64,000 nucleotides of DNA from an uncultured virus (IMG/VR IMGVR_UViG_3300031182_000003) (IMGVR_UViG_3300031182_000003), one strand, 5' to 3'; shown: positions 878 to 61,551, counted from the first letter of the stretch. The notes: generated by a model from the sequence alone, not told the origin. Translations and numbers: made by a program.

Positions 878-988
878 TCGCAATTGGGGGCCGCCGAAGG
901 CGGCCCCTCATGTCTTTTCACGTCACTACAACACAAAACGCCCGGTGTCCCGGGCGGATGTGATGAGATACGAAAGGAGGATATTCCG

Positions 989-1189
989 ATGGCTATTGCA
1001 TTGCATGAACTGGATTACGAAACGATGGTTTCCCACCATATTCGTGACCACGATATCGTGCATATGGCTCACATCTTGTACGACCGTGCCCGATCCCGCC
1101 AACAGGAAATGGTGTCGTGGCGGCAGGCGTCCAAAGTTGTGAAGCGTGAGTTTATCGAAGCCGCGAAGCAAGAACTCGGGCTTCGCTAA
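989..1189 (+). CDS. Small hypothetical protein
   Basis: AAAGGAGG RBS before ATG 989 (MAIALHELDY...). Confidence 0.7.
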   Translation: MAIALHELDYETMVSHHIRDHDIVHMAHILYDRARSRQQEMVSWRQASKVVKREFIEAAKQELGLR

Positions 1190-1299
1190 ATGATCGACTC
1201 CGATCCGGGGCCGATCTCCTTCTCTTTTTTTGTTCATACGAGCAGGGCCAGCGAACAAGATGCGGCTCTAATCCAAATTTCACAAGGAGGCATATCGCC

Positions 1300-1689
1300 A
1301 TGAATTACAAGGTGAAAATCAACGGACTGACCATCAATGCACCGGAGTTGCCCGCAGAGTTCAAGCTGGATTCGCTTGAAGTTGAAGTCGAGAATCTCGA
1401 CCTGAAGGATTCCCTGCAAATCGCCCGGCAACTGCCGCACATCATACTGGATCTCCGCCGCATGATGGAACTGCCGCCCGAACAAGTCACGCGGAATCCG
1501 CAAACCATCGACGATGCAATCATGCCCGGCATGATTGTAGCCCTCCAATGCATGGATCGTTCCGGCAGAGGTGTCGTGGACAAGGTGACGCGCCATCACA
1601 TCTACCTCGAAGGCGTTGATGAACCGTTCCCGAAACATGAAGTTATCTTCTTCTCCGTTTTGGAAGCGGCTGACAATGATGAAGCATAA
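1300..1689 (+). CDS. Hypothetical protein
   Basis: AAGGAGG RBS; typical codon usage. Confidence 0.7.
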   Translation: MNYKVKINGLTINAPELPAEFKLDSLEVEVENLDLKDSLQIARQLPHIILDLRRMMELPPEQVTRNPQTIDDAIMPGMIVALQCMDRSGRGVVDKVTRHHIYLEGVDEPFPKHEVIFFSVLEAADNDEA

Positions 1690-2599
1690 GAAGACCCTTG
1701 AATGCAGTTCGGCAGGCGACACCCGCTTCTCTGCATATTATGCGCGTGTGCGCCTCTTTGGCAAGACGAAAACCATCGAAGAATGGTATCAGCTTTCCAA
1801 GCGTTTCGGAAAGATCAAACCGATGTCCGTGAGAGAAGCCAAAGGCAAAGCACCGACACACCTCATCATCAACGGTCAGCGGTATTCCGCACACTTCCTG
1901 AGCCAGTGGTATAAACTCCTCTGGCTCAAGTATCTTGACGATCATCCCGAACTGGTGAAGTTTGCTTCGCAATTTGAGGAGTTCACGGACAAGTTTCGTG
2001 GTCGGCGCACGCAGAACTGCCAAGCCGACATCATCAAACAATACGTAACGCGCGGGCGGCAATCGCTCATCGACGATTGCGAATATCTGCTCGACGCTAT
2101 GAAAGGATGGGACATGTTTATGGCAAAGAAGCCGGAAAGCGGATTGCCTGTGGTAAAGGCATGGACGGACGGCGCGTGCCAAGGCAACGGCAGAAGCAAC
2201 GCACGCGGCGGATGGGCATTCATTGCGCGGTACAAAGATGAGGAGCGCGTGAAGTTCGGCGGTGTGAAGACCAAAGGTGTCACCAACAACCAAATGGAGT
2301 TGCGTGCCGTCATCGAGGTGTTCAAGGTGCTGAAGGTTCCGTGCGAAGTTCATATCCACACGGACAGCGAATACGTTGCGCTGGCGTTCAGCGAAGGCCG
2401 CCTGAAGCGTTGGATGAAGAATGGCTGGAAGACCTCCGACAACAAACCGGTCGCCAACAAAGACATGTGGAAAGAGCTTGTCGAACTCATCAAGAACGGC
2501 GGCCACAAGGTCAAGGTCAAGCATGTGCAAGGCCACGCCAATGACGAGTTGAACAACCGGTGCGACGCGCTCGCCGTCAAAGCCGCACGATCTGCGTAA
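1676..2599 (+). CDS. rnhA: Phage-type N-terminal domain (LECSSAGDTRFSAYYA) fused to ribonuclease HI
   Basis: C-terminal half has WTDGAC, TNNQMEL, HTDSEY, VANKDMW and HVQGHANDELNNRCDALA RNase H motifs. Confidence 0.85.
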   Translation: MMKHKKTLECSSAGDTRFSAYYARVRLFGKTKTIEEWYQLSKRFGKIKPMSVREAKGKAPTHLIINGQRYSAHFLSQWYKLLWLKYLDDHPELVKFASQFEEFTDKFRGRRTQNCQADIIKQYVTRGRQSLIDDCEYLLDAMKGWDMFMAKKPESGLPVVKAWTDGACQGNGRSNARGGWAFIARYKDEERVKFGGVKTKGVTNNQMELRAVIEVFKVLKVPCEVHIHTDSEYVALAFSEGRLKRWMKNGWKTSDNKPVANKDMWKELVELIKNGGHKVKVKHVQGHANDELNNRCDALAVKAARSA

Positions 2600-2634
2600 G
2601 CCATCATTGACTGTCAACCGCAATCGGAAATCCT

Positions 2635-2717
2635 GCACCGATCATGCATTGTATGGTCTGATCGGTGCCTGTTTGGCAGGGTGAATCTCACCGATGACAT
2701 TCATCCTGCCAAACAGG
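2635..2717 (+). repeat. Two adjacent inverted repeats in a ~470-bp intergenic region
   Basis: GCACCGATCA/TGATCGGTGC (2635-2668) and CCTGTTTGGCAGGGTGAAT/ATTCATCCTGCCAAACAGG (2668-2717). Confidence 0.8.
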
Positions 2718-3071
2718 TGTGAACGTTGCATTTGAACATTGCCCACACCATTTGTTTGTGCCTGTCTGCCGCTGTCGCGGCAAGAATTGAGGCATTCCCG
2801 CCCCCTTGAATAGACCCCCGAGTCGAATTGGTACGCTGGTTATGTTCCAGTACGCTTTGTCTTACGCAATTATGCTTTTCAGCGAGGAGTCGTACCGCTG
2901 GTGCAACGTACCGTGTACCACCAGACCGGCTGTGGTGGTTTTGTTTTCTCCTGTGGGTTTGAGTCCTCGAACGACCCCTCCATAAATATATAACAGAATC
3001 GGCATTTTTCCGTATTTGTAACCCTTGTCACAGAATGTTCACAAATTTGTCACGAAAGGAGGTGAGAGACC

Positions 3072-3566
3072 ATGCCGAAGAAACGTGAGGAAGAAGATGT
3101 CGTCAACGTCAATGACGAAGACTTCGATATCGACGAGGACGAAGACATCGAAGTTGTCGATGGCGACGAATATGATGACGATGAGAACGAAGACGGCGAG
3201 TCCGGTGAACGGTTCGACCAAAGCGCCTTCATCCGGCAATGTGTTGCGGATGCGACCGCCGAGCAAAAGGCGTACGTCGATAAAGTGATGAAGTCCGTCA
3301 ACAAGCGGCTCGACGATCACGATCATCGCATCAAAAACCTCGAAAAAATGGTTCACAACCTCAGTGACGCTCCGGCCCCGGTTATGGCGAAAGCTCAGAG
3401 CCGCAAGCTCAAGCAAAACCATGATGAACAGACCGGTCTGGATCGCATTCTTGACGCGACGTTCGGCACGGCGGGCCGCGCTCTGCACGCTATTGTCGAT
3501 GCGACGGCGTACATCGCCGAATCGGTCATCGACCTTGCGACGCTCGGTCGTGCACGTCGTACGTGA
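3072..3566 (+). CDS. Hypothetical protein with acidic N-terminus
   Basis: AAAGGAGGTGA RBS; D/E-rich N-terminus. Confidence 0.75.
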   Translation: MPKKREEEDVVNVNDEDFDIDEDEDIEVVDGDEYDDDENEDGESGERFDQSAFIRQCVADATAEQKAYVDKVMKSVNKRLDDHDHRIKNLEKMVHNLSDAPAPVMAKAQSRKLKQNHDEQTGLDRILDATFGTAGRALHAIVDATAYIAESVIDLATLGRARRT

Positions 3567-3633
3567 CACGGACAGGGCGGCCCGGTGTCCCGGGCCGCCC
3601 TGATTTCGTATTTCGCACAAGGAGGCTGTAATT

Positions 3634-4041
3634 ATGTTTCAGCAATGGGTTCAAGCAATCAAGGCACGCATATTCAAGAAACCGCCGGTCGTTGTCGATC
3701 CATACCGCGCGAAATTGTTGGAAGACATGGCCCGCGCGATTGCACGCATCAGAACAGCGATGGAGAAGTATGAGGATGCATTGCGTCATACGGATGACGA
3801 CGGTGTGAACTACTCTCAAATGCTGTTCAATCAACTGGATGGCTATGTCACCGATTACATGAACCTGCGTTTGCAGTACGAGGCTATGTACGGTGACTTG
3901 GAAAACTACTACCAGAAGTTCACCAAACTGCGTATTTGGCAAGAGCGAGGTGAGTACCCATGCCTGTTTCTACACCGATTCAAAACGGCTACCATTCCGT
4001 TTACTTTGGACGGGGAGAAGGACTCAGCGGCTTCTGCATGA
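3634..4041 (+). CDS. Hypothetical protein
   Basis: AAGGAGG RBS. Confidence 0.65.
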   Translation: MFQQWVQAIKARIFKKPPVVVDPYRAKLLEDMARAIARIRTAMEKYEDALRHTDDDGVNYSQMLFNQLDGYVTDYMNLRLQYEAMYGDLENYYQKFTKLRIWQERGEYPCLFLHRFKTATIPFTLDGEKDSAASA

Positions 4042-4313
4042 GCAAAAACGAGTTCGAGGTTCTCGGTATGAAGATCCTCAACTCGAACCCCGGACTTGCG
4101 GACACCATCATCCCGTACGTCCATCGCCTGTTCACGCAAGGCCCGCAGACCTTCAACCACATCGACGCATTCGCGCTTCTTGAGGAACTGGAGCTTTTGA
4201 TTCCGGCTTCTGTTATGCTGAACAACATCGAGCGCAACCAACTGGTGCTGATCTACAACAACCTGAAGTATCAAACCTACCGTTATCTCTACTCCACCAT
4301 CGAGTTTGTATAA
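4038..4313 (+). CDS. Hypothetical protein
   Basis: ATGA overlap with upstream stop. Confidence 0.6.
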   Translation: MSKNEFEVLGMKILNSNPGLADTIIPYVHRLFTQGPQTFNHIDAFALLEELELLIPASVMLNNIERNQLVLIYNNLKYQTYRYLYSTIEFV

Positions 4314-4392
4314 CGGCCCCGCTGTCGCGGGAAGGCTTGATGATTCCATCATCAGCAATACCAATTCCAATATTTCAAGGAGGAATGTGCAA

Positions 4393-5061
4393 ATGAATCT
4401 CGTGGTGTTGAGCGGTCGTCTGTACAATGGTGCTGTCTATGGCTATGAGGACGACGACGAACAAGAACGTACCTGTTTCCGTGGTCGCCTGAATTTCCGG
4501 CTCCCGAACGGCAAGTACGACTGGATCGACGTGGTCTGCTTCCGGGACAATCCGAACACCGATGAAAACGGTCTGGTCGGCTGGCTGGAGCGGAACTATC
4601 TCGCGCCGGAAGACGAATCCGACGGTCACGGCGGCAAGGCAATCGAACTGTCCGGCTGGCTGAAGCCCACCGAGAAGCGCAAGACAATCACGGTGAAGAC
4701 CTCCAGCGGCAAGAGGGACATTCCGAACGTGCCGTACACGACGTTCGAGCTGGTCATCGACCAAGCAAACTTCCCGCCGCTGTCGCATGGCGAAGGCGGA
4801 AAGAACAACGGCGTAGAAGTGGATGACGACTTCGATATCGACGAAGACGTCGAAGTTGCAGAGGACGACGACGACGAAGAAGAAGTCGCACCGCGCCGTG
4901 GCAACAAGTCCTCTGGCAAGTCTGGCGGCTCCAGCCGCGCAAGCGGAGCGCGTAGCGACCGCCGTTCGGTTCCGTCGAAGTCCGGCAAAGCCGGAAAGGC
5001 CAACGGCAGGACGAGCAATCGCCGCCGTGACAAAGACGACAACTTCTTCGTTGAAGACTGA
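4393..5061 (+). CDS. ssb: Single-stranded DNA-binding protein (OB fold, acidic tail)
   Basis: MNLVVLSGRL start, DWIDVVCF, G/S-rich linker, acidic end DDNFFVED. Confidence 0.7.
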   Translation: MNLVVLSGRLYNGAVYGYEDDDEQERTCFRGRLNFRLPNGKYDWIDVVCFRDNPNTDENGLVGWLERNYLAPEDESDGHGGKAIELSGWLKPTEKRKTITVKTSSGKRDIPNVPYTTFELVIDQANFPPLSHGEGGKNNGVEVDDDFDIDEDVEVAEDDDDEEEVAPRRGNKSSGKSGGSSRASGARSDRRSVPSKSGKAGKANGRTSNRRRDKDDNFFVED

Positions 5062-5173
5062 TCGCTGTTACATTTTGACTCGTTGTCGTTGACAATGGCG
5101 ACATTGTCACAATATACTAGAGAGGACAGGACTCATCGTCCTCTCTAGTATTGACAACGGGGAGTGTAACACG

Positions 5174-5614
5174 ATGTCGGACAAGGCTGTCGCCTACGAA
5201 ACGCCTTTCACCGAGCAAGCCGTGTTGTCGCTGAGTGACCACATCAAGGCATCGTTGACCGAATATGCGAAGAACAATGGCAAGGATGGCAAGGTTGACT
5301 TCTTCGTCATGATGGCCGCACTCGGCCAAACGGCGTTTGAGATGGCAATGTCAACGTTGCCGAAATCGCAGGAAGACCGCAAGGCGATCCACGATGAAAT
5401 GCGGTTGCTGACGGACAACCTGCTGGCGAAGATCGACGCTGTTCGGGTCGAGTACAAGACGCGCGGCTCAACCGATCTCGTCGCCATTGCGCATTTGATG
5501 TCGTTGGTTGCGGAAATTTATTCCCGCAGGCGCGACGCGGCTGTTCTGAAAGTTCTGCAAGACCAAGCGGAAGCCGCCAGTCAAGACGCGGCTCAAGCAC
5601 AAGCGGAGTCGTAA
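5174..5614 (+). CDS. Hypothetical helical protein
   Basis: GGGGAG RBS; coding-like composition. Confidence 0.7.
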   Translation: MSDKAVAYETPFTEQAVLSLSDHIKASLTEYAKNNGKDGKVDFFVMMAALGQTAFEMAMSTLPKSQEDRKAIHDEMRLLTDNLLAKIDAVRVEYKTRGSTDLVAIAHLMSLVAEIYSRRRDAAVLKVLQDQAEAASQDAAQAQAES

Positions 5615-5874
5615 GACTCCTCACATGAGGGTATGATGTGCCGCTCAGGAATGTTTTCAACCCCTTACGTTCCCGGCGGAACACGGCTTCACATCGTACC
5701 TTCATGTGGGTAGTCTGCACCGCTATCCAGCCACCCTTTCGATTCCTGTTTGGACGGGGGGAACTCTTTGTTCTTCCCGTGAGGCATTCGTCGTATCCGA
5801 CGGGTGTCTCACAGGGGGGACAAAAACGGGCCTGCATTTTGCGGGCCCATCATTTTATCGCAGGAGTGATTGTC

Positions 5875-6402
5875 GTGAGCAAGGACAAAGTGGTTTCGAT
5901 AGACCAGTTGCGGCAAAGACGCGAGGAGCGCCAGATGCAACAAAGCCCCGAATCTGCTCAATTGCCCTCGCATATTGAGCAGGCTCTCGAAGCGGAAAAC
6001 CAAAAGGTGCTTGCTGTATTCAAGACGCTCGATGAGGCATTGTCGAAGTATTCCAAGAACAATGCGTTCGGATCCGTTTTGGTTCCCATCGAAGCTTTGG
6101 CCCGCATGATACTGAGTGCGGCAACATCCATCGACCGGCATCTGCCGGAACAAGATCAGATTGACCAGATAGACTTCCGCAACGAACTTTCGGAGGGCAT
6201 TCTGGATGTGATCAACATCGTTATTGAGGATCGTCAGCTTATGGGTCAAACCAAGATTTATAAGCATGACGTTTACATAGCCCTCATTATGGCATTATTG
6301 TCATCGCTCTTTGAGCATCGCATTGTGCAAATTCAACTGGAAAAGAAAGGGGTTGCCTCGCGTGTCGAGCCAAGTTTCACTGACGATTCAAACAAAGGAT
6401 AA
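5875..6402 (+). CDS. Hypothetical protein
   Basis: AGGAGTG RBS before GTG 5875. Confidence 0.65.
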   Translation: MSKDKVVSIDQLRQRREERQMQQSPESAQLPSHIEQALEAENQKVLAVFKTLDEALSKYSKNNAFGSVLVPIEALARMILSAATSIDRHLPEQDQIDQIDFRNELSEGILDVINIVIEDRQLMGQTKIYKHDVYIALIMALLSSLFEHRIVQIQLEKKGVASRVEPSFTDDSNKG

Positions 6403-7057
6403 GAATCTGATCTACAGTGCGACGGGGCTGAATGACGAACACGATCTGGCCGTCATCAAAGGCATGTTTGCCGCTTTCGGTTTGTGCGAAGGCGGCCCAC
6501 TCCCTGAATTGCCGCCCGCTGTTGTTGCAGGGACACAACAAGTCGCGGTTACAGCCATTGCGGAGCCTCCGGCTAAAACACAAATGCCTGAACCGGAAAA
6601 GCCCAAAGCACAACAAGAACAGTCGGCTTCTCGTCCGCGACAGCTTCCGTTCATCAATGCCGAGCGCGGCACAACCAAAATTGGTGATATTCCGGGCGTT
6701 GCCGACAAGCTGATCGAAGCAGGCTTCCAGATTGTGGAGAAGACCAATGCGCAGGTGCCCGACCATATTGCAACCGGCATCAAGCTGAAAGAAATCGGCG
6801 GCGAAATAAAGCGAACCTACCGGTGCAAAAACCACTGTCCGAAGTGCGGAGAGATCAGCAATTCCTATCTGTTGCCGCACAATGTATGGTCGAAGTGCTT
6901 CCATTGCGGCACGAAGCTTGCCGCTGTTCCGGCCATCCCCGGCGAACTGCTCGTACCCGACGAGCATATGAACTTCTTCTACGCGGAAGAAGAATATTAT
7001 GAGGTAGGCTATGATGACGACAGACAAGGATCCGAATCTGATCCAGCAGATGTTTGA
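6362..7057 (+). CDS. Hypothetical protein with C-terminal zinc ribbon
   Basis: CPKCG...CFHCG motifs. Confidence 0.65.
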   Translation: MSSQVSLTIQTKDKNLIYSATGLNDEHDLAVIKGMFAAFGLCEGGPLPELPPAVVAGTQQVAVTAIAEPPAKTQMPEPEKPKAQQEQSASRPRQLPFINAERGTTKIGDIPGVADKLIEAGFQIVEKTNAQVPDHIATGIKLKEIGGEIKRTYRCKNHCPKCGEISNSYLLPHNVWSKCFHCGTKLAAVPAIPGELLVPDEHMNFFYAEEEYYEVGYDDDRQGSESDPADV

Positions 7058-7388
7058 ACGGTTCAAATCCGTTCACCCCATCTTCAATGACTGTATGCAG
7101 AAGATCTACGAGAAGGAAGGGTTTGACCCAACCGAAATGGCGATCTATCTCAACATCATGACCGGCCAGTATATTCACAAGACTCTTATGGAGTACACCG
7201 GCATGACGACGGAGGAGATCGGCAATCTGGCGAATATGCAGGTTGAATCGTTCAGCCAGAGCGGCACCATGAACAAGCATACACTCACCGGGCAGATTAT
7301 CGGCCTCCAAGCCGCTCTCGGCGTCGCTCTTACCAAACTCGATCTTGTGATGAAGTCGTTGGCAGAAGGTAACAAGGATCCGTCGTGA
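7011..7388 (+). CDS. Hypothetical protein
   Basis: GAGG RBS; overlaps upstream ORF end. Confidence 0.6.
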   Translation: MMTTDKDPNLIQQMFERFKSVHPIFNDCMQKIYEKEGFDPTEMAIYLNIMTGQYIHKTLMEYTGMTTEEIGNLANMQVESFSQSGTMNKHTLTGQIIGLQAALGVALTKLDLVMKSLAEGNKDPS

Positions 7389-7446
7389 TATGGTACAATT
7401 GTCGTGAGCCAACCCGCTCTCATTCTTTGGTCAGCAGGTGATGCAT

Positions 7447-7620
7447 ATGGCACTCACGGCACCGCAACAAGCCGAAGTGAACAAGCTGAAAGCCCAAATT
7501 GCCGACCTCAAGCAAACGGTGATGAATACTAAGCATTGCACGATGGGTGGCTTCGGCAACTATCTGTTCGACGCCTTCAAGCAGATCGAAGATCAAGTCA
7601 AGAAGATCGAACAGACTTGA
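7447..7620 (+). CDS. Small helical protein, MALTAPQQ paralog 1
   Basis: AGGTGA RBS; N-terminus identical to the 8800 protein. Confidence 0.7.
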   Translation: MALTAPQQAEVNKLKAQIADLKQTVMNTKHCTMGGFGNYLFDAFKQIEDQVKKIEQT

Positions 7621-7684
7621 GCATGACGCCCCGGTGTCCCGGGGCGCATTGCTTACCAGCATATGTCGTGAGGAGGTGTCAACT

Positions 7685-7954
7685 GTGGTTCTCTACCATG
7701 TGACCACACCGAAGAAGGCCAAGAACTACAGTGCTTCCGGCTGTATTCACCGTCCGGTGAGAGGATTCACAACGCTCATGGCGGCAATGGCATGGGCGGT
7801 GAAGACTCAGCGCTCAGTCATATATGCTGTTGAAGGTGACAAAGCATACAAGCTTCCCGACCATCACAACAAATATGGCGAGGCGTGGTGGCTGGACGAA
7901 GATGTGCCGATGGAAAGAGCAACCTGTGTATTCAGCGCCGACAAAGATGCTTAG
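7685..7954 (+). CDS. Hypothetical protein (LYHVT motif)
   Basis: GAGGAGGTG RBS; VLYHVTTPKK start loosely resembles ART-fold/DUF952-type small proteins (weak). Confidence 0.65.
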   Translation: MVLYHVTTPKKAKNYSASGCIHRPVRGFTTLMAAMAWAVKTQRSVIYAVEGDKAYKLPDHHNKYGEAWWLDEDVPMERATCVFSADKDA

Positions 7955-7979
7955 GAGGTTCTGTAGAAGGAGGATATCC

Positions 7980-8225
7980 ATGTCTGATCGCCAAAACACG
8001 ATGGATCGCATCCTGCGTTGTCTGGAGTGGGCAGAAATCGACATCGAAGATGTCAAAGAAGGCACGATTCTTACCGATGACATTGGCATGAACAGTCTTG
8101 ATAGAATCCGTCTCGCCACGGAAATCGAGGACGAGTTCGATATCGAAGTTGAATATAAAACCATCATGAGTTGGGAGACCGTCGGTGACATTGTCCGGTA
8201 TGTCAACAAGAACATCCGTGACTAA
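7980..8225 (+). CDS. Acyl carrier protein-like
   Basis: 81 aa, acidic; DDIGMNSLDRIRL (DSL-like Ser site), IEDEFDIEV, TVGDIVRYV. Confidence 0.8.
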   Translation: MSDRQNTMDRILRCLEWAEIDIEDVKEGTILTDDIGMNSLDRIRLATEIEDEFDIEVEYKTIMSWETVGDIVRYVNKNIRD

Positions 8226-8232
8226 GCCCTTC

Positions 8233-8668
8233 GACGGGCTTCACATTCAGCACCTATGCAGGTGTCGCTAGTCTCTCAAAGGCCAAGAGAGACCTTGGAC
8301 ATACGACGAGGCGGGTCTTGCAAACCCGGTGGCAGTATGCAGGAGGAGAAAAGGTACGGCAAAGCGAGGAAATCGCACCAAGTCCGTCTCCGAAACGTAT
8401 CCTCATCCAGTAAACGACACCGTTCCGAAGTCCACTGATCGGTAATGGCCAGAATAACCGATAAAGGGCATGGGTGCTGAACCTTGAAGTCCGTCGCGCC
8501 CGCGACGCAATTTCCTGTTCTTTGCATCTTCGGTGATTGAGAACAATCTCGGGCTGGCTACGGCCTAGAAATGAAGTGGCACCATTACATGCTGACGCAT
8601 GGCCTGATTCTTCATGTACCACTAAACTCGCTGGCCGAGAACGGCCCGGGCTATGGAACACATAGCCC
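8233..8668 (+). ncRNA. Candidate large multi-branched structured RNA
   Basis: GACGGGCTTCA/TGAAGTCCGTC and TTCAGCACCTATGC/GCATGGGTGCTGAA close 8233-8495; internal helices GGTGTCG/CGACACC, GTCTCTC/GAGAGAC, CATAC/GTATG; no credible ORF. Confidence 0.55.
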
Positions 8669-8697
8669 GTATCATTCATTTTATGTATAATGTTCTT

Positions 8698-8741
8698 GGG
8701 GAAAGGGTACATATTGTCGGTTCGACTCCGACGTTCCCCCA
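8698..8741 (+). ncRNA. Minimal tRNA-like element (acceptor stem plus T arm only)
   Basis: GGGGAA...GTCGG-TTCGACT-CCGAC-GTTCCCC; TGTATAAT ends 6 nt upstream. Confidence 0.55.
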
Positions 8742-8799
8742 CTCTCCCTTTGGGCGGCAAACCCGCCCTGTTACTCCCTCCAGAAGTGGGTGATAAACT

Positions 8800-9021
8800 A
8801 TGGCATTGACGGCACCGCAACAAGAGAAGATGGATGAAGCCAAGGCTACGCTTGTGCAGATCAAGTCCGGCCTTGAGCAAATGCAGGAAGTGGTCTACAA
8901 CTCCCTGTCCATCCAGAACGTCGGCGGCTCGCACATCTACAACTTGGGCCAAGACCTGAAGCCCCTGTTCGCAAAGCTGGAGTCGCAACTCGAAGCGGTC
9001 GAAACGGTCGGAGATGAGTAA
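8800..9021 (+). CDS. Small helical protein, MALTAPQQ paralog 2
   Basis: GGGTGA RBS; paralog of the 7447 protein. Confidence 0.75.
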   Translation: MALTAPQQEKMDEAKATLVQIKSGLEQMQEVVYNSLSIQNVGGSHIYNLGQDLKPLFAKLESQLEAVETVGDE

Positions 9022-9258
9022 CGTTCGTTACTGCTTCGATTGTCAGCAATGGCTTCCCGCTTATAAAGTCTTTGCTGACCGTTTCGCCTACCATTGCTGT
9101 TGGTATTGCCATTGCACCGTGGCAATCGAACGGCGATCCAAAACGTTAACGTTATAGCCCCACGGAGGAAGTGACGGAAACCCGTCGCTTTCTTTGTTTT
9201 ATAGTCTGCTCCGTTGTCACGGAATGTTATGACTATGGAATGAAAGGATGCGACGGGT

Positions 9259-9912
9259 ATGGCAACAACAATCGTTAATAAGTATCACAAGCTTCCGTTT
9301 GATGAATACATTGGTCGTGGCTCGAAATGGGGCAATCCGTTTTCACACATGGAAGGCACCAAGGCGAAGTTCAAAGTCGCCACTCGCGAAGAAGCTATAC
9401 AGAATTATCGCCAGTGGATTCTCAGACAACCGGAGCTTTTACTGTCCCTTCATGAATTGAAGGACAAAACGCTTGCGTGCTTTTGCAAGCCTGCCGCATG
9501 TCATGGTGATGTGATTGTCGATCTGATTGAAAATACGTTCTTCCTAGTGATTGCGGGCTCCCGGGACTTCGATGATTACGAACTGCTGAAGATGAAGGCG
9601 GACAAGATTACACGCCGCATCAAGAAGCAGATCGTTGTTGTATCCGGCACCGCAAAAGGAGCCGACAGACTCGGCGAGCGTTATGCGAAGGAGCGCGGCT
9701 ATGATGTTGCGTACTTCCCGGCTGACTGGAATCGGTACGGCAAACGCGCCGGTATGTTACGCAATTGTGACATGGCGACGCTCGTGAAAAATCTTCGCGG
9801 CGGCGTCATTTGTTTTTGGGATGGATCATCTCCCGGCACGCGCGGTATGATTAACATCTGCGAAGAACTCGGGGTGCAACTCCGTGTCATCAAGTATCCA
9901 AACTACGCTTAG
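9259..9912 (+). CDS. DUF4326 domain fused to a SLOG (YspA/DUF2493-like) domain
   Basis: YIGRGSKWGNPF and LACFCKPAACHGDV, then IAGSRDF, VVSGTAKGADRLGE, ADWNRYGKRAGMLRN, WDGSSPGT. Confidence 0.8.
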   Translation: MATTIVNKYHKLPFDEYIGRGSKWGNPFSHMEGTKAKFKVATREEAIQNYRQWILRQPELLLSLHELKDKTLACFCKPAACHGDVIVDLIENTFFLVIAGSRDFDDYELLKMKADKITRRIKKQIVVVSGTAKGADRLGERYAKERGYDVAYFPADWNRYGKRAGMLRNCDMATLVKNLRGGVICFWDGSSPGTRGMINICEELGVQLRVIKYPNYA

Positions 9913-9923
9913 GAGGTGTACTC

Positions 9924-10001
9924 ATGCGCAGACGCATTGGGTTGCAGTGGATTTTGCTTGCTGTTGCAATCATTTCGTATGCACTCGTCGCTCTCATCTG
10001 A
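9924..10001 (+). CDS. 25-aa hydrophobic membrane peptide
   Basis: GGAGGTG RBS; MRRRIGLQWILLAVAIISYALVALI. Confidence 0.5.
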   Translation: MRRRIGLQWILLAVAIISYALVALI

Positions 10002-10104
10002 TAAAATGCCGCTGTTTTGGCTGGTAAATCCAGACGAAGTTGTGTATTATAAAGGGGGAGGGACGTTACATAAATCGCCTCTTTACGTGACATTGCAAGG
10101 GTAG

Positions 10105-11874: not shown

Positions 11875-11893
11875 TCACCGGAAAGGTGAAATC

Positions 11894-12463
11894 ATGTGGC
11901 TTATTATTCTGATCGTTGACAATCTTGTACTTCTGGCCCTGTTCTTGTGGTATCGCAGACAGTACCGCCGCAAGCTTGAGGAAGTGCGCAACTTGATTAC
12001 GCGCGACCCGCTGACAAAACTGTATAATCGGCGCGGTTTTGAAGACATGCTGATGCAAATCCGCAGAATGTCGAGTCATCGGGAGCCCTTTGCCGTTCTG
12101 ATGATCGACGTGGATCATTTCAAGTCAATCAATGACACGTATGGTCATTGCTTCGGCGATGCTGTTCTGCGAGTCATTGGTATGCTGATCGAAGATGAAT
12201 GTAAGGGCAACGGAATCGTTGCCCGATTCGGCGGCGAGGAGTTTGTTGTTATCCTCCCGCAAGTCACTCGGGAACAGGCCGTTCTTGTTGCTGAACACAT
12301 CCGAAATCGAGTTCGCACCCATGTCTTTGATTCGCATCCTGAACTGCGAATCACCGTCAGCATTGGCATTGGCTTGAGTCAGGAAAGCGGAGCGATTGTG
12401 GATAGTGCGGACAAGAAGCTTTACCTTGCCAAGAATGCGGGTCGGAACAAGATCATTGTATAA
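11894..12463 (+). CDS. Membrane-anchored diguanylate cyclase (GGDEF domain)
   Basis: N-terminal TM helix; DPLTKLYNRR, IDVDHFKSINDTYGH, RFGGEEF, ADKKLYLAKNAGRN. Confidence 0.93.
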   Translation: MWLIILIVDNLVLLALFLWYRRQYRRKLEEVRNLITRDPLTKLYNRRGFEDMLMQIRRMSSHREPFAVLMIDVDHFKSINDTYGHCFGDAVLRVIGMLIEDECKGNGIVARFGGEEFVVILPQVTREQAVLVAEHIRNRVRTHVFDSHPELRITVSIGIGLSQESGAIVDSADKKLYLAKNAGRNKIIV

Positions 12464-12487
12464 CCCAACCAATAGGAGGTAGACCAA

Positions 12488-13087
12488 ATGCCGAACTATC
12501 AACACATCTACTCTACGCTCCGGTCTGCGCTTGTGGATCGTGACCGTGATCCGTCGTTCATCGTGGACGACTGTGTCATTGTCGGATTCGGCAAAGATCA
12601 ATTTGCCCTGCGTAAATACGTTCCGTCCGGCGCACTTCTTGTTGCGTATTCGATGCTGTTCTACCCGGGGTTCCTTGACGTAACGGAACGCAATCCGTAC
12701 TGGATGTTGTATGCGAGGGTATGGCTCGGCGGCGAACAAAATCCGAAATATCCGCTTCTGCCGAACGAGATTATGGCAGGCATCGCCATTGCAGTCGGCG
12801 TGTATGCCGGATTCATCAAGGCCATTGGTATGACTGAAGGTGTCGCGATCCGGCCCAACTTCGATCATCCGATGGTGAAGAAGACCCACGAACTCATTCG
12901 CGAGAATGGTTTGGAGTTGAAAGACGCGAAGCAAACGTTCATCGAACTCATGCAACAGGAGGAGTACGCGAAAGATATTCTGGTCGCGGACGACTTCATC
13001 GCAAATCCGTTCATCGCGGAGTTCAACGTCGGCGTGAATACGGCCACCACGGTCGAAGAACTCAGGAAAGCGAGTGAACTTCTGTGA
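12488..13087 (+). CDS. Hypothetical protein
   Basis: AGGAGGT RBS. Confidence 0.7.
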   Translation: MPNYQHIYSTLRSALVDRDRDPSFIVDDCVIVGFGKDQFALRKYVPSGALLVAYSMLFYPGFLDVTERNPYWMLYARVWLGGEQNPKYPLLPNEIMAGIAIAVGVYAGFIKAIGMTEGVAIRPNFDHPMVKKTHELIRENGLELKDAKQTFIELMQQEEYAKDILVADDFIANPFIAEFNVGVNTATTVEELRKASELL

Positions 13088-14371: not shown

Positions 14372-14372
14372 C

Positions 14373-14780: not shown

Positions 14781-14816
14781 TGTATTCATTTCTCTCATTT
14801 GGTGTATAATGTGATT

Positions 14817-14905
14817 GAGGAACCCTTTCACATCGACCGTCAGTAATCGGGGAGCCACACGTTAGACCTCCTGCGTGCCCCGTCGCCATACTGACGGTCT
14901 TTTTT
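14817..14905 (+). ncRNA. Candidate small RNA with terminator-like end
   Basis: TATAAT at 14805-14810; GACCGTCAGTA/TACTGACGGTC stem followed by T6; ACCTCCT in apical region. Confidence 0.5.
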
Positions 14906-15522: not shown

Positions 15523-15900
15523 GTGTTGGAACCGGAAATCAAAGATGTTCTAAGCCGGAAACAACGGCAGAAAAACGCAAACGATATTCTGAACCGCCTT
15601 GATCCTGATAAACACAATTTCAACGTCATCATTCTCGGATTTGCGGATATCATTCAATCATCGTTCTACAAATTCGTGGAGTCGCAATGCCGGAGCCAGA
15701 GCGAGCTTCGCAAGAAGCAGGATCGCATGAACAAGACCATATCCGACGTACTGACGCTTCTCAATGAAAGCGGACTTGACAACGCCGAAGATATGGTGGT
15801 TTTGTCAACCTGTATGGTTGAAGCGATCAATCGCGCTTTGGTGCGACAACAAGAAAATGGGGTAAGCATCCGCCCCGGTCTGAAAGAGAAGGGCGAATAG
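15523..15900 (+). CDS. Hypothetical protein
   Basis: GGGGTGA RBS before GTG. Confidence 0.6.
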   Translation: MLEPEIKDVLSRKQRQKNANDILNRLDPDKHNFNVIILGFADIIQSSFYKFVESQCRSQSELRKKQDRMNKTISDVLTLLNESGLDNAEDMVVLSTCMVEAINRALVRQQENGVSIRPGLKEKGE

Positions 15901-16005
15901 CCCGTTGTCACGGGCAGAATTGTATATCTGCCGTTACACGGTGAAATACTGATACTAATACGACCGGGGCCAAGGCGGCCCCTATCTTATTGAGGAGGAT
16001 GTGAT

Positions 16006-16893: not shown

Positions 16894-16904
16894 AAAAGGA
16901 GGCG

Positions 16905-20176: not shown

Positions 20177-20227
20177 GCGACCATATCTCGCTGTCGCGAG
20201 ATGATGTGTCGAAAGGAGGGAGATATC

Positions 20228-30196: not shown

Positions 30197-30294
30197 TCTG
30201 TATTTCATTCGGTAATACTGCAAGTAACAGGGCGTGGCAAACCTGAATAGCAAATGTTGGGCGGCTCCTCGGTGTCCCGAGGAGCTTTGCTCTG

Positions 30295-32289: not shown

Positions 32290-32414
32290 TGCCCGATGTC
32301 GATCAATTGTATGACGCTGTCGCGTCAAGATTTGCAATGTACGATGCGAGATGAGGATGTGGTTATAAAGATTACCACACCCGATTACCACCCGCTGAAA
32401 GGAGATGAATCCTC

Positions 32415-36862: not shown

Positions 36863-36921
36863 AGCGCTATCCGCTCCCCGTTGTCACGGGGAGCTTTGCT
36901 TTTCAAGAAAGGAGGGATGTC

Positions 36922-45217: not shown

Positions 45218-45288
45218 TTTCCGGCTCGATCCGGCAGAAGGAGCAACCCCTTGAACGGTGTCCCGTTCAGGGGTGTTGTTTCTTTAGT

Positions 45289-53857: not shown

Positions 53858-54369
53858 TGATGAAGCGCAAACGCGGTCATTATTATGTCGGCGACCGGGT
53901 GATGGATCGGGTATGGCGGCGCAAAGGAGTCGTGACCGGCGTGCCGAAGATCTTTTCTCCGTTGTCACGGGTAGATGTAGAGTGGGAGGATGGAACCAAA
54001 ACCGAAGCGTGGACACCATCCATCATGCTCGATCCTGATTTTGTCGGAGAGTTGGTGAAGCAGATGAGCAGAAGGTATTTCGTACCGAAAGTCGGCGACC
54101 GCGTGAAGGTTTTGTCGCTCGGCATCAAGGGAACGGTCGAATACATTTCGATCAACGACTTGCCGTTTTCGTTCTTGTACCCGATCCAGTTAAAGTTGGA
54201 CAAGCCCTATGACGAAACCGGCCATCGGATGTACCGCGTCGGTCTGGACGACATCAAACTGCTGAAGAAGAAGGAAAAAGCCAAGTCCATCAAGAAGAAA
54301 AAGAAGCGCGTCATTCCCGATGATGAACCCATCATTTGGGACGACGACGAACCGATTGAGTGGGACTGA
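53857..54369 (+). CDS. Hypothetical protein with two SH3/KOW-like repeats
   Basis: VGDRV occurs twice. Confidence 0.6.
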   Translation: MMKRKRGHYYVGDRVMDRVWRRKGVVTGVPKIFSPLSRVDVEWEDGTKTEAWTPSIMLDPDFVGELVKQMSRRYFVPKVGDRVKVLSLGIKGTVEYISINDLPFSFLYPIQLKLDKPYDETGHRMYRVGLDDIKLLKKKEKAKSIKKKKKRVIPDDEPIIWDDDEPIEWD

Positions 54370-54371
54370 GG

Positions 54372-59714: not shown

Positions 59715-60192
59715 TCGCACACGCGGCTACACCACCCCAACGGAAGCTGATAATCAATGCGACTACTTCAAAAATCGGTTCTTTGAACACGGGCTCAAGA
59801 ATGAACGGCGGGCCGTCTGCGAACTGAAACCAAGTGAAGGTATCCATTGCGATTACCAATTGATTCAGGAAGACGGCACGCCCATCTGTGCCCGGTATGT
59901 GTATTGGCCTCACTTTGAAATCATCAAAGATGCACCGGTTATCCCGGATCTGGATCCTATCCCGTATCGAGAAAACACCAAAGTCGAGGTACAGAAAAAA
60001 GATGCGGATGGGAATCCGCTCTTTTGGGATACAACAGTGGATCCGCCCGTTGAAACGACGGAAGATACGGGGGAACCGATTATGGTGGAGGAGTACACGA
60101 AAGCCGAGTGGTTCTCCACACAATGGGTTGATACGCACGAGAAGCAGTTACGCATTCGCAATCATGTACTTGGCTGGTATCATGAAGTATAA
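59671..60192 (+). CDS. Hypothetical protein
   Basis: Open frame; start uncertain. Confidence 0.6.
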   Translation: MGLLTMRPKLNGSLDRTRGYTTPTEADNQCDYFKNRFFEHGLKNERRAVCELKPSEGIHCDYQLIQEDGTPICARYVYWPHFEIIKDAPVIPDLDPIPYRENTKVEVQKKDADGNPLFWDTTVDPPVETTEDTGEPIMVEEYTKAEWFSTQWVDTHEKQLRIRNHVLGWYHEV

Positions 60193-60205
60193 GGAGGCAT
60201 TCATT

Positions 60206-60535
60206 GTGAAAATCGTCGAAAAACTGCTTGGCTTTTGGAGCCATTTCGGCGTCAAGACGGTAACGACTGTCGAGGGGGATAAGGTTCCGCAGATTGTCCC
60301 GGGAAAAACGCACCAATGTCCGCCGAGCTTGCTGGACAAAATGCGGAAGATTGAAGCGAAACGCGAAGGAGTCCAAGGAATGCTGTCCATGATGACGCAA
60401 GAACTTGGAACTATCTTTTTGGAAGAACGAGCGGTTTGGGATGAGATCCGTGCGGAACTCGGCATCCCAAGAAATATCGGGCTTGTTCTGAATCGGGAAA
60501 CCGGAGTGATCAGAGAAGCCCGTATCAAGGAGTGA
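60206..60535 (+). CDS. Hypothetical protein
   Basis: AAGGAGG RBS before GTG. Confidence 0.65.
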   Translation: MKIVEKLLGFWSHFGVKTVTTVEGDKVPQIVPGKTHQCPPSLLDKMRKIEAKREGVQGMLSMMTQELGTIFLEERAVWDEIRAELGIPRNIGLVLNRETGVIREARIKE

Positions 60536-60541
60536 TACCTG

Positions 60542-61186
60542 ATGTTGAACTGGTTGAAGGGGCTTTGGAATAAACTGCCGTTCAAACACAAGTTCCAGAT
60601 CCGTTATTATCACGAGCAGTTTCTTGAAAACAACGAAGTATCGGAACAGGAACGCCGTCGTCAACGGATCAAGAACATGTCGCATGTTGTTCCGCCCCGG
60701 GATCTACACTTCAGGTGTCCTTATTGCGGACAAGCGCACAAGATGATTTGTTCGCCGAATATTCAGATCGGACAGGATCATGCACAGGGATATCTGCTTC
60801 AGATGTCAGTAGACGGCGTTGCTGTCGGATTCCCGTCGTCGGAGTGGAACGATGTGCAATATGATTTGATCGACCGGCCCGAATGCGAAGTTGTCTGCGA
60901 GGAGTGCGGCGAGAAAGACGCCTTCTGGAAGTGGAATTTCGCTTACCATAAACCGCTCGTCTTCTTCGAGATGGATCAAGAACATCTGTGCCATTGCGGC
61001 GGTGAAATGTATATGGAGCATCTGCCGGGCACGGATCAGTACGCGCTCCGTTGTGAGCGTCAATCCTGCCGTTGGGTCAAACCCGACAGCAAAGTAAGCG
61101 GAGCCCCCGGCCAAACACAAGTCGGGGCGGAAGAAGGAGAATTGAAGTATGAACTTCGCACTCACAGGGAACGAAGTGCAGATTGA
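60542..61186 (+). CDS. Cys-rich (zinc-binding) hypothetical protein
   Basis: CPYCG, CEECG, CHCGG, CERQSC. Confidence 0.7.
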   Translation: MLNWLKGLWNKLPFKHKFQIRYYHEQFLENNEVSEQERRRQRIKNMSHVVPPRDLHFRCPYCGQAHKMICSPNIQIGQDHAQGYLLQMSVDGVAVGFPSSEWNDVQYDLIDRPECEVVCEECGEKDAFWKWNFAYHKPLVFFEMDQEHLCHCGGEMYMEHLPGTDQYALRCERQSCRWVKPDSKVSGAPGQTQVGAEEGELKYELRTHRERSAD

Positions 61187-61490
61187 AGGATTTGCGTGGG
61201 TGATTCACCACGATTTCGATATCGACGAAGAAGTTCCGAAAATCGAGGCGAAGCTGAGGAAATGCTTCGAGGGCGAGACGGCGCACAAGATCACGCGCGT
61301 CTACATCGGAAGCAACAGCTTCAAGTCGTTCTATACGCAGGCCGGATTCGAGGACATCCACATTCCCGGCATTCTGGAGTACATACGGGAACTTTACCAA
61401 AAGGGGCGCTTCCCGCTTGATCTCCGGTTTATGAATTACGTTACCTATACGCCACTTACGCTTGTCGAAAATAAAGAGGGCACTCCGTAA
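61149..61490 (+). CDS. Hypothetical protein
   Basis: AAGGAG RBS. Confidence 0.65.
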   Translation: MNFALTGNEVQIEGFAWVIHHDFDIDEEVPKIEAKLRKCFEGETAHKITRVYIGSNSFKSFYTQAGFEDIHIPGILEYIRELYQKGRFPLDLRFMNYVTYTPLTLVENKEGTP

Positions 61491-61551
61491 AGGGGTGCTC
61501 TCTTTGCGTTGTCACGCAAAGAGTGAAGTTTGCAGAGAGGGAGGTTGGGCC

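What the first reader, a model, noticed from the sequence alone, without database searches (positions are those of the whole stretch)
939..61523. At least 14 dispersed hairpins with an invariant TGTC loop and covarying stems
Seen: consensus stem-CGN-TGTC-N'CG-stem at 939-956, 2767-2782, 3573-3602, 4318-4331, 7627-7646, 9210-9223, 15900-15915, 20185-20202, 30264-30285, 32312-32327, 36873-36894, 45248-45273, 61500-61523 and 53959-53970 (in a CDS). The closing pair varies (G-C, T-A, C-G) and stems differ but always pair. The loop reads TGTC on the coding strand in every copy I found. Nearly all lie between a stop codon and the next RBS, and most lack a U-tract, so they are not ordinary terminators. 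Inference: a sequence- and structure-specific site for a phage protein, such as a boxB-like antitermination signal, RNA processing or stabilising site, or ssDNA hairpin signal.
Basis: partly seen in the sequence, partly recalled or inferred. Interest (0 to 1): 0.8.

Follow-up and report, generated by a model that had tools for sequence, protein, structure and literature searches.

The report
Jumbo-phage hairpin transcription signal family
A large phage carries about a dozen copies of one short hairpin-plus-sequence signal between its early genes, and a distant relative has the same signal with a different loop, so it is probably a start (or stop) signal read by the phage's own unusual RNA polymerase.

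Summary
14 copies of CGN-TGTC-N'CG lie on the + (coding) strand and 0 on the - strand. Shuffled sequence gives 0.97 for both strands together. Stems covary strongly.

The element is more than a hairpin. It is a fixed-register motif of about 22 nt. Counting the loop T as 1, G12 is present in 14 of 14 copies and T16-G17 in 12 of 14, whatever the stem length of 4-13 bp.

The window is the non-structural arm of a relative of Bacillus phage 0305phi8-36. It begins inside the gene for that lineage's YonO-like single-subunit RNA polymerase. 0305phi8-36 has the same architecture with loop TCGC: 21 copies on the coding strand, 0 on the other, and none in the structural arm. Six of these sit at orthologous gene junctions.

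The loops therefore changed in concert, which implies a co-evolving trans-acting reader.

Best reading (about 0.4): N4-like hairpin promoters for the phage polymerase, with initiation near G17. Main rival (about 0.28): a phage-specific terminator or attenuator.

Canonical intrinsic termination by the host polymerase is unlikely. Only 3 of 13 intergenic copies have a U-tract, and separate terminator-like hairpins directly precede three copies. No transcript-end data exist.

The parts
1..877 (+). 3' end of the gene for the YonO-like single-subunit RNA polymerase (ortholog of 0305phi8-36 gp99); candidate reader of the signal
   Evidence: tblastn of 35-877 hits ORF099 at 208062-208928: 29.7% identity over 293 aa, E 5.6e-30.
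886..908 (+). Strong terminator-like hairpin with a GAA loop, directly after the polymerase gene and 30 nt before the first TGTC copy
   Evidence: dG -20.3; flagged as terminator-like; fold.
939..962 (+). Signal copy 1: 7-bp stem at 939-956, loop T at 946, G12, TG at 961-962; next start codon at 989
2767..2789 (+). Signal copy 2: 6-bp stem, loop T at 2773; lies in a 470-nt non-coding gap
3573..3602 (+). Signal copy 3: 13-bp stem, loop T at 3586; the TG box (3601-3602) lies inside the stem. Orthologous junction to 0305phi8-36 copy 205126. One strain variant changes this loop.
4318..4339 (+). Signal copy 4: 5-bp stem, loop T at 4323. Sits at the ORF092-like | ORF091-like junction, as does 0305phi8-36 copy 204699.
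7627..7651 (+). Signal copy 5: 8-bp stem, loop T at 7635
9162..9197 (+). Terminator-like 16-pair hairpin with a T-rich tail, 12 nt before signal copy 6
9210..9231 (+). Signal copy 6: 5-bp stem, loop T at 9215
15900..15922 (+). Signal copy 7: 6-bp stem that overlaps the upstream stop codon, loop T at 15906; followed by the second promoter-like motif at 15934. 0305phi8-36 has the same arrangement at 193197.
20185..20208 (+). Signal copy 8: 7-bp stem, loop T at 20192; start codon 25 nt after the stem
30264..30289 (+). Signal copy 9: 9-bp stem, loop T at 30273; followed by the second motif at 30306
32312..32334 (+). Signal copy 10: 6-bp stem, loop T at 32318; upstream of the ORF050-like gene, as is 0305phi8-36 copy 178078
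36873..36898 (+). Signal copy 11: 9-bp stem, loop T at 36882; after the GroES-like gene
45248..45275 (+). Signal copy 12: 11 pairs including one T-G pair at G12, loop T at 45259; followed by the second motif at 45300
53959..53970 (+). Doubtful copy: 4-bp stem inside a CDS; has G12 but no TG at positions 16-17; possibly chance
   Evidence: chance expectation is about 0.5 per strand
61500..61525 (+). Signal copy 13: 10-bp stem, loop T at 61510, TG shifted by one base. It lies 28 nt before the primase start, as does 0305phi8-36 copy 144270.

Best explanation
The TGTC hairpins are copies of one strand-specific transcription signal of about 22 nt in a 0305phi8-36-like jumbo phage.

Its anatomy is as follows. 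A 10-nt core (C-G, G-C and N-N' pairs closing the loop TGTC) is extended by a stem of free sequence and length. At fixed distances from the loop follow G12 and T16-G17.

I propose that they are promoters for the phage's own YonO-like single-subunit RNA polymerase, whose gene ends at base 877. They would be recognised in the manner of N4 virion-polymerase promoters. A small DNA hairpin is extruded. On the template strand its loop reads 5'-GACA-3' (5'-GCGA-3' in 0305phi8-36), so G and A sit at the two ends as in N4. The polymerase reads the loop and clamp bases and starts a fixed distance downstream, near G17. This would give short leaders that run straight into the strong ribosome-binding sites.

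Shown: the motif, its register, its strand and arm restriction, the stem covariation, the presence of the polymerase gene, and the concerted loop difference between the two phages.

For: 1. Conserved bases keep register with the loop, not with the stem base. In the window G12 is found in 14/14 copies, T16 in 13/14 and G17 in 12/14, with stems of 4-13 bp. In 0305phi8-36 T13 is found in 18/20, T16 in 18/20, G17 in 20/20, T18 in 17/20 and A19 in 18/20. There are 14 exact copies of the 22-nt pattern there. A terminator's tract should follow the stem base instead.

2. Both phages share the architecture, but the two middle loop bases differ (GT versus CG), including at 6 orthologous junctions. This implies a co-evolving reader. 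The polymerase is among the more diverged shared proteins (29.7% identity, against 50-66% for replication proteins).

3. Separate terminator-like hairpins directly precede copies at 886-908/939 and 9162-9197/9210, and an 8-bp hairpin abuts the copy at 61500. In 0305phi8-36 a canonical terminator after the endolysin gene is followed by the signal and then the primase RBS. The order is always terminator, then signal, then gene.

4. The window has canonical terminators with other loops and good T-tracts at 22937, 25794, 46020 and 47643. Only 3 of the 13 signal copies have such a tract.

5. Copies begin right after the polymerase gene and are densest in the next roughly 9 kb: 6 of 13 in the window, and 7 between 203 and 208 kb in 0305phi8-36. 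None lies in the structural arm of 0305phi8-36: 0 forward copies, and no reverse copy below 144 kb apart from the terminal-repeat duplicate at 71-80.

6. The features of N4 promoters match. As read in passages of PMC4496689, these are: a conserved GC-rich core centred on the loop, variable stem bases that need only pair, a 5'G:A3' sheared pair across the template-strand loop, melting of the base of longer stems, and a ruler-like distance to +1.

7. A perfect-consensus copy lies inside annotated ORF047 of 0305phi8-36. A promoter would be harmless there; a terminator would not.
Against: 1. There are no transcript 5' or 3' ends. The one RNA run found gave only short, low-depth contigs.

2. In 0305phi8-36 the hairpins start 1-11 nt after the upstream stop codon in most of the junctions printed, as terminators do. 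7 of the 10 copies in the scanned 20 kb are flagged as terminator-like. Hardies et al. 2007 called the hairpin after orf81 a terminator (PMC2147016, passages).

3. Where the signal is adjacent to the second promoter-like motif, the signal is upstream in 5 of 5 cases.

4. Some extended stems contain G-T pairs that would be A-C mismatches on the other strand. Examples are the 0305phi8-36 copy after the polymerase gene (16 pairs, 4 of them G-T, then a T-tract) and window copy 45259. This suggests RNA-level pairing.

5. In copy 3586 the proposed start lies inside a 13-bp GC-rich stem.

6. One natural strain variant changes the loop of copy 3586.

7. Hardies et al. proposed a different-looking, middle-distributed 21-bp motif as the gp99 promoter. 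I could not see their logo.

8. The loop has 4 nt, not 3, and the polymerase is not T7-like, so the N4 parallel is by analogy only.
Confidence: 0.4

Rival explanations
1. The signal is a phage-specific terminator, attenuator or pause site that acts as an RNA hairpin. The hairpin ends or slows transcription units of the early arm. The invariant loop and clamp would be read by the phage polymerase or by a phage termination/antitermination factor, giving temporal control of read-through.
For: - The hairpins sit immediately after stop codons.
- 7 of 10 scanned 0305phi8-36 copies and 3 of 13 window copies have T-rich tails.
- The signal is always upstream of the second promoter-like motif (5 of 5).
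- G-T-containing extended stems favour pairing on the coding strand.
- G7, T16 and G17 happen to fit the spacing of the bacterial elemental pause consensus (G at -10, pyrimidine at -1, G at +1). This consensus is recalled, not from a call.
- Hardies et al. read one copy as a terminator.
Against: - The conserved bases are in register with the loop and not with the stem base.
- 10 of the 13 window copies lack a U-tract, although canonical terminators in the same window have one.
- Three copies directly follow separate terminator-like hairpins.
- Many downstream genes would then have no visible promoter.
- A perfect copy lies inside a 0305phi8-36 ORF.
Confidence: 0.28
2. The signal is an RNA hairpin bound by a phage RNA-binding protein. 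Possible roles are a boxB-like antitermination loading site, an endonuclease processing or 3'-stabilising site, or a translational operator for the adjacent RBS.
For: - The loop and three closing pairs are invariant while the outer stem is free.
- All copies are on the coding strand.
- The stem ends 25-38 nt before the next start codon in 7 of 13 copies.
- The loop changed in concert between the phages.
Against: - No RNA-binding, N-like or RNase family was found among 94 ORFs. There were only two WYL-domain proteins, an HU-like protein and a sub-threshold Rho_N hit.
- The RNA loops UGUC and UCGC belong to no known stable or protein-binding tetraloop class (recalled).
- Stems as short as 5 bp exclude RNase III.
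- In 5 cases a promoter-like motif lies between the hairpin and the gene, so that gene's own transcript would lack the hairpin.
- Copies behind terminators would rarely be transcribed.
Confidence: 0.17
3. The signal is a single-stranded DNA hairpin on the lagging-strand template. It would serve as a priming site for the phage DnaG-type primase (hairpin plus start triplet, as at the G4 complementary-strand origin; recalled), or as a strand-specific nick site.
For: - The hairpin is followed by a conserved T-G at a fixed distance.
- The signal is strand-specific.
- The phage encodes its own primase at 61552-62823.
Against: - The signal is absent from the whole structural arm of 0305phi8-36, which must also be replicated.
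- It is placed tightly between a stop codon and an RBS.
- It is densest in the small-gene early region.
Confidence: 0.05
4. The signal is a selfish or REP-like dispersed repeat with no role in phage gene expression.
For: It is dispersed, intergenic and palindromic.
Against: - Only 10 core bases plus three downstream positions are conserved, and the stems are unrelated in sequence.
- There is a single orientation.
- Almost no degenerate copies exist: 3 on + against 3 on - at 1-2 mismatches.
- Six junctions are conserved between phages whose proteins are only 30-65% identical.
- No transposase is present in the window.
Confidence: 0.03

Closest known systems
Hairpin promoters of the coliphage N4 virion RNA polymerase (read in passages of PMC4496689, and PMC13434306)
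   Same: - A conserved GC-rich core centred on a small loop.
- Flanking inverted repeats whose non-conserved bases need only pair.
- G and A at the two ends of the template-strand loop.
- Conserved register from the loop to the start site regardless of stem length.
- Use by a phage-encoded single-subunit polymerase.
   Different: - The loop has 4 nt, not 3, and stems reach 13 bp rather than 5-7 bp.
- There are 13-20 copies spread over about 65 kb, instead of 3 at one genome end.
- The polymerase here is YonO-like (two-barrel), not T7-like, and is not known to be packaged in the virion.
- Neither hairpin extrusion nor initiation has been shown.
Promoter sets of T7-type phage RNA polymerases (recalled)
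   Same: - Many copies of one roughly 20-nt motif, all on the coding strand.
- Copies start just after the polymerase gene and are densest in the following region.
- Related phages differ at a few specificity positions.
   Different: T7-type promoters are read as duplex DNA and contain no inverted repeat. The polymerase family is different.
Intrinsic (Rho-independent) terminators
   Same: GC-rich hairpin just after a stop codon. Many 0305phi8-36 copies have a T-rich tail.
   Different: The loop and clamp are invariant, conserved bases keep register with the loop, and 10 of the 13 window copies have no U-tract. Ordinary terminators with other loops coexist in the window and sometimes directly precede the signal.
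The '14 phage-specific promoter candidates, 21 bp' of 0305phi8-36 (Hardies, Thomas and Serwer 2007; PMC2147016, section 18 read, figure not available)
   Same: Same phage lineage and the same idea of a motif read by gp99. The 22-nt pattern CGTTCGCACG-N8-TGTA has exactly 14 perfect copies.
   Different: The text gives no sequence. Their 'middle' distribution fits better the second motif (the TTACA-N7-ATACTA type). The same paper treats the hairpin after orf81 as a terminator. So the hairpin signal was probably not described there, but this is unverified.
lambda boxB/nut sites and T7 RNase III sites
   Same: Small conserved intergenic RNA hairpins that serve phage gene expression.
   Different: boxB sites are few per genome, lie downstream of a promoter, and have a GNRA-like loop. 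RNase III sites need long irregular stems. Neither has downstream bases in register with the loop.

Membership tests
N4-type DNA-hairpin promoter | Conserved GC-rich core centred on the loop, flanked by inverted repeats whose other bases need only pair | tested here: met
   The core C-2, G-1, loop, C6 and G7 are invariant in 34 of 34 copies. Outer pairs covary: 82.9% of cells are paired against 56.9% in shuffles.
N4-type DNA-hairpin promoter | Stem of 5-7 bp with a 3-nt loop | tested here: not met
   The loop is 4 nt and perfect stems are 4-13 bp.
N4-type DNA-hairpin promoter | Template-strand loop with 5'G and 3'A able to form a sheared pair | tested here: inconclusive
   The template-strand loops read GACA and GCGA, so the letters fit. 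No structure was tested.
N4-type DNA-hairpin promoter | Conserved register from the loop to the start site, independent of stem length | tested here: met
   G12 in 14/14 copies and T16-G17 in 12/14; T16-A19 in 0305phi8-36. That this position is the start site is not shown.
N4-type DNA-hairpin promoter | Read by a T7-like virion-packaged polymerase; transcripts start there | tested here: not met
   The only phage polymerase seen is YonO-like. Initiation cannot be tested with these tools.
Intrinsic terminator | GC-rich hairpin followed at once by a U-tract | tested here: not met
   3 of the 13 intergenic window copies have >=5 T in 8 nt. 1 of 7 copies is flagged in bases 1-20000. In 0305phi8-36, 7 of 10 are flagged.
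Intrinsic terminator | RNA 3' ends 7-9 nt after the stem | not testable with these tools
   No read-level RNA data. The contigs of run X13 were uninformative.
lambda-type boxB/nut | GNRA-like loop on the RNA; few sites, each downstream of a promoter; an N-like protein | tested here: not met
   The RNA loop is UGUC. There are 13-20 sites, placed after stop codons. No N-like family was found among 94 ORFs, although small proteins escape Pfam.
RNase III processing site (T7 type) | Long (about 20 bp) irregular duplex | tested here: not met
   Stems are as short as 5 bp.
REP/RAYT-type repeats | Both orientations or clusters; an associated HUH transposase | tested here: not met
   14 copies on one strand against 0 on the other. 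No transposase family in the window. The rest of the contig was not seen.
Stem-loop plus sigma-70 early promoter cassettes (PeSL of T4-type phages; recalled) | Recognisable -35 and -10 hexamers after the stem-loop | tested here: not met
   In 7 copies only 25-38 nt separate the stem from the start codon, and most of this is RBS. No hexamer pair is conserved.

The most novel reading that the evidence does not exclude
A second, independent kind of DNA-hairpin promoter. The YonO-like two-barrel RNA polymerases of 0305phi8-36-type jumbo phages would recognise a clamped tetraloop hairpin and start about 15 nt downstream. The loop's two middle bases (GT versus CG) would set the specificity. This would be the first promoter consensus for this polymerase family, and it would provide two natural orthogonal polymerase-promoter pairs.
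Probability: 0.4. Interest if true: 0.85.

Novelty: new variant of a known kind. Interest (0 to 1): 0.7.

Why it matters
YonO-type single-chain relatives of the cellular RNA polymerases are established enzymes. Forrest et al. 2017 (PMC5467207, passages read) state that the sequence YonO recognises still had to be determined. My searches of the held library found no later definition.

If this reading is right, a family of 13-20 near-identical signals in each of two phages gives a directly testable candidate. The signals begin right after the polymerase gene and differ between the phages at two loop bases. 0305phi8-36 is a cultured Bacillus thuringiensis phage, so transcript-end mapping and in vitro transcription are straightforward.

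If the signal proves to be a terminator instead, it would be an unusual sequence-specific one. Either way it organises the early and middle transcription of a poorly understood jumbo-phage lineage.

Tried and rejected
- **Source genome.** It could not be searched. The window's own 208-kb metagenome contig was identified, but it is not held for pattern search. The distribution outside the window is therefore unknown.
- **Closer relatives.** A DnaE-based scan of viral, metagenome and genome contigs found only 0305phi8-36 and the window's own contig above about 34% identity. A census of hairpin loops in the loci numbered L023 and above found nothing comparable. A collection scan with the second motif gave 34 single, chance-level hits.
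- **Sequencing runs.** One metatranscriptome run held 8 listed short, low-depth contigs that do not bear on transcript ends. The DNA runs are roughly 99%-identical strains and showed few listed changes at the hairpins (937 differences were not shown).
- **SPbeta.** The region downstream of YonO was inspected for a comparable hairpin and none was evident. Without the mapped start site in that record this is uninformative.
- **Sigma-A promoter reading.** Rejected. The loop region resembles a -35 hexamer only when N is T, and no -10 hexamer follows at the right spacing (inspection).
- **Wobble-pair asymmetry as a test of strand.** Inconclusive. G-T and A-C occur 4 times each next to the perfect stems in the window. 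The G-T excess in 0305phi8-36 is confounded by the T-rich 3' flank.
- **Hairpin-less copy at 3048.** It matches the linear motif, but the match is produced by the RBS and is probably chance.
- **Earlier notes of this scan.** None were found.
- **Papers not available.** Gleghorn et al. 2008 is not held. The primary genome paper, Thomas et al. 2007 (Virology), was not looked up and was not read. Supplements were not consulted.

Full report
**What the window is.** All long ORFs lie on the + strand and have strong AAAGGAGG-type ribosome-binding sites. PHROG and Pfam hits describe a replication and nucleotide-metabolism module: RecJ, SNF2 and UvrD helicases, a split DnaE polymerase, a sliding clamp, RecA, SbcCD and a DnaG primase. 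The only close relative in the phage collection is Bacillus phage 0305phi8-36, a 218,948-bp genome; the DnaE part is 64% identical. The window is collinear with that phage's leftward-transcribed non-structural 'right arm'. The window's first ORF (to base 877) is the C-terminus of the ortholog of gp99, the YonO-like single-subunit RNA polymerase (29.7% identity over 293 aa, E 5.6e-30). The window is bases 128,922-192,921 of a 208-kb metagenome contig, which I could not search further.

Every listed hairpin is present. With the CGN...N'CG frame there are 14 TGTC hairpins on + and 0 on -. 300 dinucleotide shuffles give a mean of 0.97 and a maximum of 4 for both strands together, and the next commonest loop in that frame occurs 4 times. 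Two further TGTC hairpins without the CG clamp (5184-5195 and 33505-33518, both in coding sequence) were set aside as chance. On an alignment of 34 copies (14 from the window, 20 from 0305phi8-36), 82.9% of cells pair against 56.9% in shuffles (0 of 500). The two pairs beyond the clamp are paired in 34 of 34 copies using all four Watson-Crick types. Degenerate copies are essentially absent: 3 on + and 3 on - at 1-2 core mismatches. The copy at 53959 has a 4-bp stem, lies in a CDS and has no TG box; it may be chance.

**It is a linear motif with a hairpin inside it.** I aligned the copies on the loop, counting the loop T as position 1. In the window, G12 is invariant (14/14), whether it falls inside or outside the stem. 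T16 is found in 13/14 copies and G17 in 12/14, with stems of 4 to 13 bp. In copy 45259 the only non-Watson-Crick pair of an 11-pair stem is a T-G pair at G12. This suggests that the base is kept for its own sake.

**The same signal with another loop in 0305phi8-36.** The pattern CGN-TCGC-N'CG occurs 21 times on the coding (reverse) strand and 0 times on the other. One of the 21 is a terminal-repeat duplicate. All unique copies lie between 144 and 213 kb, and none is in the 144-kb structural arm. The register is the same: T13 in 18/20 copies, T16 in 18/20, G17 in 20/20, T18 in 17/20 and A19 in 18/20. The pattern CGTTCGCACG-N8-TGTA has 14 perfect copies.

Six window copies sit at junctions that also carry a copy in 0305phi8-36:
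- after the polymerase gene (946 / 207991)
- after the ORF093-like gene (3586 / 205126)
- between the ORF092-like and ORF091-like genes (4323 / 204699)
- overlapping the stop codon of the ORF073-like gene (15906 / 193197)
- before the ORF050-like gene (32318 / 178078)
- about 28 nt before the primase start (61510 / 144270)

The stems at these junctions are unrelated, and the loops differ uniformly. The first and last loop bases (T and C) are shared, while the middle two differ. Uniform change of this kind across many sites calls for a trans-acting reader that changed specificity.

**Not ordinary terminators.** Only 3 of the 13 intergenic window copies have >=5 T in the 8 nt after the stem, and only 1 of the 7 copies in bases 1-20000 is flagged as terminator-like. 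Yet the window has conventional terminators with other loops and good T-tracts at 22937, 25794, 46020 and 47643. Separate terminator-like hairpins directly precede the copies at 939 (886-908, dG -20) and at 9210 (9162-9197), and an 8-bp hairpin abuts the copy at 61500. In 0305phi8-36 a canonical terminator after the endolysin gene is followed by the signal and then the primase RBS. The endolysin insertion lies upstream of the signal, so the signal stayed with the primase gene.

**Best reading: a promoter.** N4 virion-polymerase promoters are described in passages of PMC4496689 as follows. They have a conserved GC-rich core centred on the loop. Their inverted repeats contain non-conserved bases that need only pair. 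A sheared G:A pair spans the template-strand loop. The base of longer stems is melted. A ruler-like distance separates the hairpin from +1. The present signal parallels each point at the level of sequence. On the template strand the loops read GACA and GCGA, so the two loop bases shared between the phages are the G and the A. The T-rich run before G17 would be the easily melted initiation region. G17 is a plausible initiating purine.

The distribution also fits a phage-polymerase promoter set. Copies begin just after the polymerase gene and are densest in the following small-gene region: 6 of 13 in the first 9.2 kb of the window, and 7 between 203 and 208 kb in 0305phi8-36. They thin out over the replication genes. 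This resembles T7, which I cite from memory. A strong terminator right after the polymerase gene (886-908) would end host-polymerase early transcription. Forrest et al. 2017 say the promoter recognised by YonO remained to be determined (PMC5467207, passages). My later searches found no definition.

**Evidence against, and the main rival.**
- In 0305phi8-36 the stems begin 1-11 nt after the stop codon at most junctions.
- 7 of the 10 copies in the scanned 20 kb are flagged as terminator-like.
- Hardies et al. 2007 read the hairpin after orf81 as a terminator (PMC2147016).
- Where the signal adjoins the second promoter-like motif it is always upstream (5 of 5).
- Some extended stems rely on G-T pairs. 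The copy after gp99 has 16 pairs, 4 of them G-T, followed by a T-tract. This favours RNA pairing, although the T-rich flank confounds the argument.
- In copy 3586 the proposed start lies inside a 13-bp stem.
- One strain variant alters that copy's loop.
- G7, T16 and G17 also fit the spacing of the bacterial elemental pause consensus (recalled).

I therefore keep a phage-specific terminator or attenuator at about 0.28, and an RNA protein-binding site at about 0.17. The two main readings are not exclusive. The DNA element could be a promoter while its RNA copy on read-through transcripts attenuates transcription or stabilises 3' ends.

**Prior description.** Hardies et al. report '14 candidates for 0305phi8-36-specific promoters' of 21 bp, proposed as gp99 targets and 'distributed to be a middle expression promoter' (section 18 read). 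The text gives no sequence and the figure is not held. The count of 14 equals my count of perfect 22-nt copies. However, the stated distribution fits better a second motif that I found in both phages: GCATAA-N5-CGTTACA-N7-ATACTA-N3-GTAAC. It occurs in the window at 15934, 20564, 30306, 32980, 45300 and 63393, on the + strand only, and in 0305phi8-36 in about 8 reverse-strand matches at <=2 mismatches. This second motif is nearly identical in the two phages, whereas the hairpin signal is not. That is why I assign the fast-diverging polymerase to the hairpin signal. Whether the hairpin signal is already in print is therefore unsettled. The primary genome paper was not read.

**Verdict.** The feature is real, strongly non-random and conserved. 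The mechanism is inferred, not shown.

Noticed in passing
window 15934, 20564, 30306, 32980, 45300, 63393 (+ strand): A second phage-specific promoter-like motif of about 35 nt: G(C/T)ATAA-N5-C(G/A)TTACA-N7-ATACT-N4-GTAAC. It has 6 copies on + and 0 on -. It is nearly identical in 0305phi8-36 (for example at 189478 and 141046). It is probably the '21 bp promoter candidate' of Hardies et al. 2007. Three copies lie 20-40 nt after a TGTC hairpin.
   Followed up: partly
window 17933-18318: A group I intron (Rfam, 54.4 bits) splits the SNF2/RecQ-like helicase gene (17625-18005 and 18373-19845). Contigs of two DNA runs join 18001 to 18349, so intron-less strains exist.
   Followed up: partly
window 41290-41775: The DnaE polymerase gene is split (39842-41290 and 41775-44258) by about 480 nt. 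This insert has a weak group I intron match (25.6 bits, E 2e-4) and a 53-aa ORF similar to the intron endonuclease region of 0305phi8-36. It looks like a reduced version of that phage's mobile intron.
   Followed up: partly
window 25912-25987 and 27421-27510: A tRNA with anticodon CUA (an amber-suppressor type, labelled Pyl by ARAGORN; Rfam 71.6 bits), and a second tRNA-like gene with an irregular anticodon loop.
   Followed up: no
window 14905-15468: In three DNA runs a 562-bp stretch carrying two small ORFs is replaced by 20 other bases. This is a strain-level cassette polymorphism.
   Followed up: no
window 5089-5118: A near-consensus sigma-A-type promoter (TTGACA-18-TATACT) lies before the ORF090-like gene. 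0305phi8-36 has TTGACA-17-TATACT before ORF090. A conserved host-type early promoter therefore sits among the hairpin signals.
   Followed up: no
L264 about 25100-25300 (0305phi8-36, 212.1-212.3 kb, - strand): About five tandem repeats of roughly 24 nt (of the AGTATCGCACACGTTATGTC type) lie upstream of orf100. They share the loop-plus-3'-arm letters and a GTTATGT box with the hairpin signal, but they lack the 5' arm and have 3 nt less spacing. Their role is unexplained.
   Followed up: no
window 3586-3589: In one soil-metagenome strain (run X7) the loop of this copy reads GTCA instead of TGTC, while the 13-bp stem is kept.
   Followed up: no
window 57808: A near-copy inside the end of the SbcCD-like gene: CGA-TGTG-TCG with a 4-bp stem and with G12, T16 and G17 all present. 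It may be a functional variant or chance.
   Followed up: no
window 1616-2599, 7980-8225, 11840-12463, 16905-17594: Unusual cargo for a phage: a NADAR-RNase H fusion, an acyl-carrier-like PP-binding protein, a GGDEF diguanylate cyclase and a PspA/IM30 protein.
   Followed up: no
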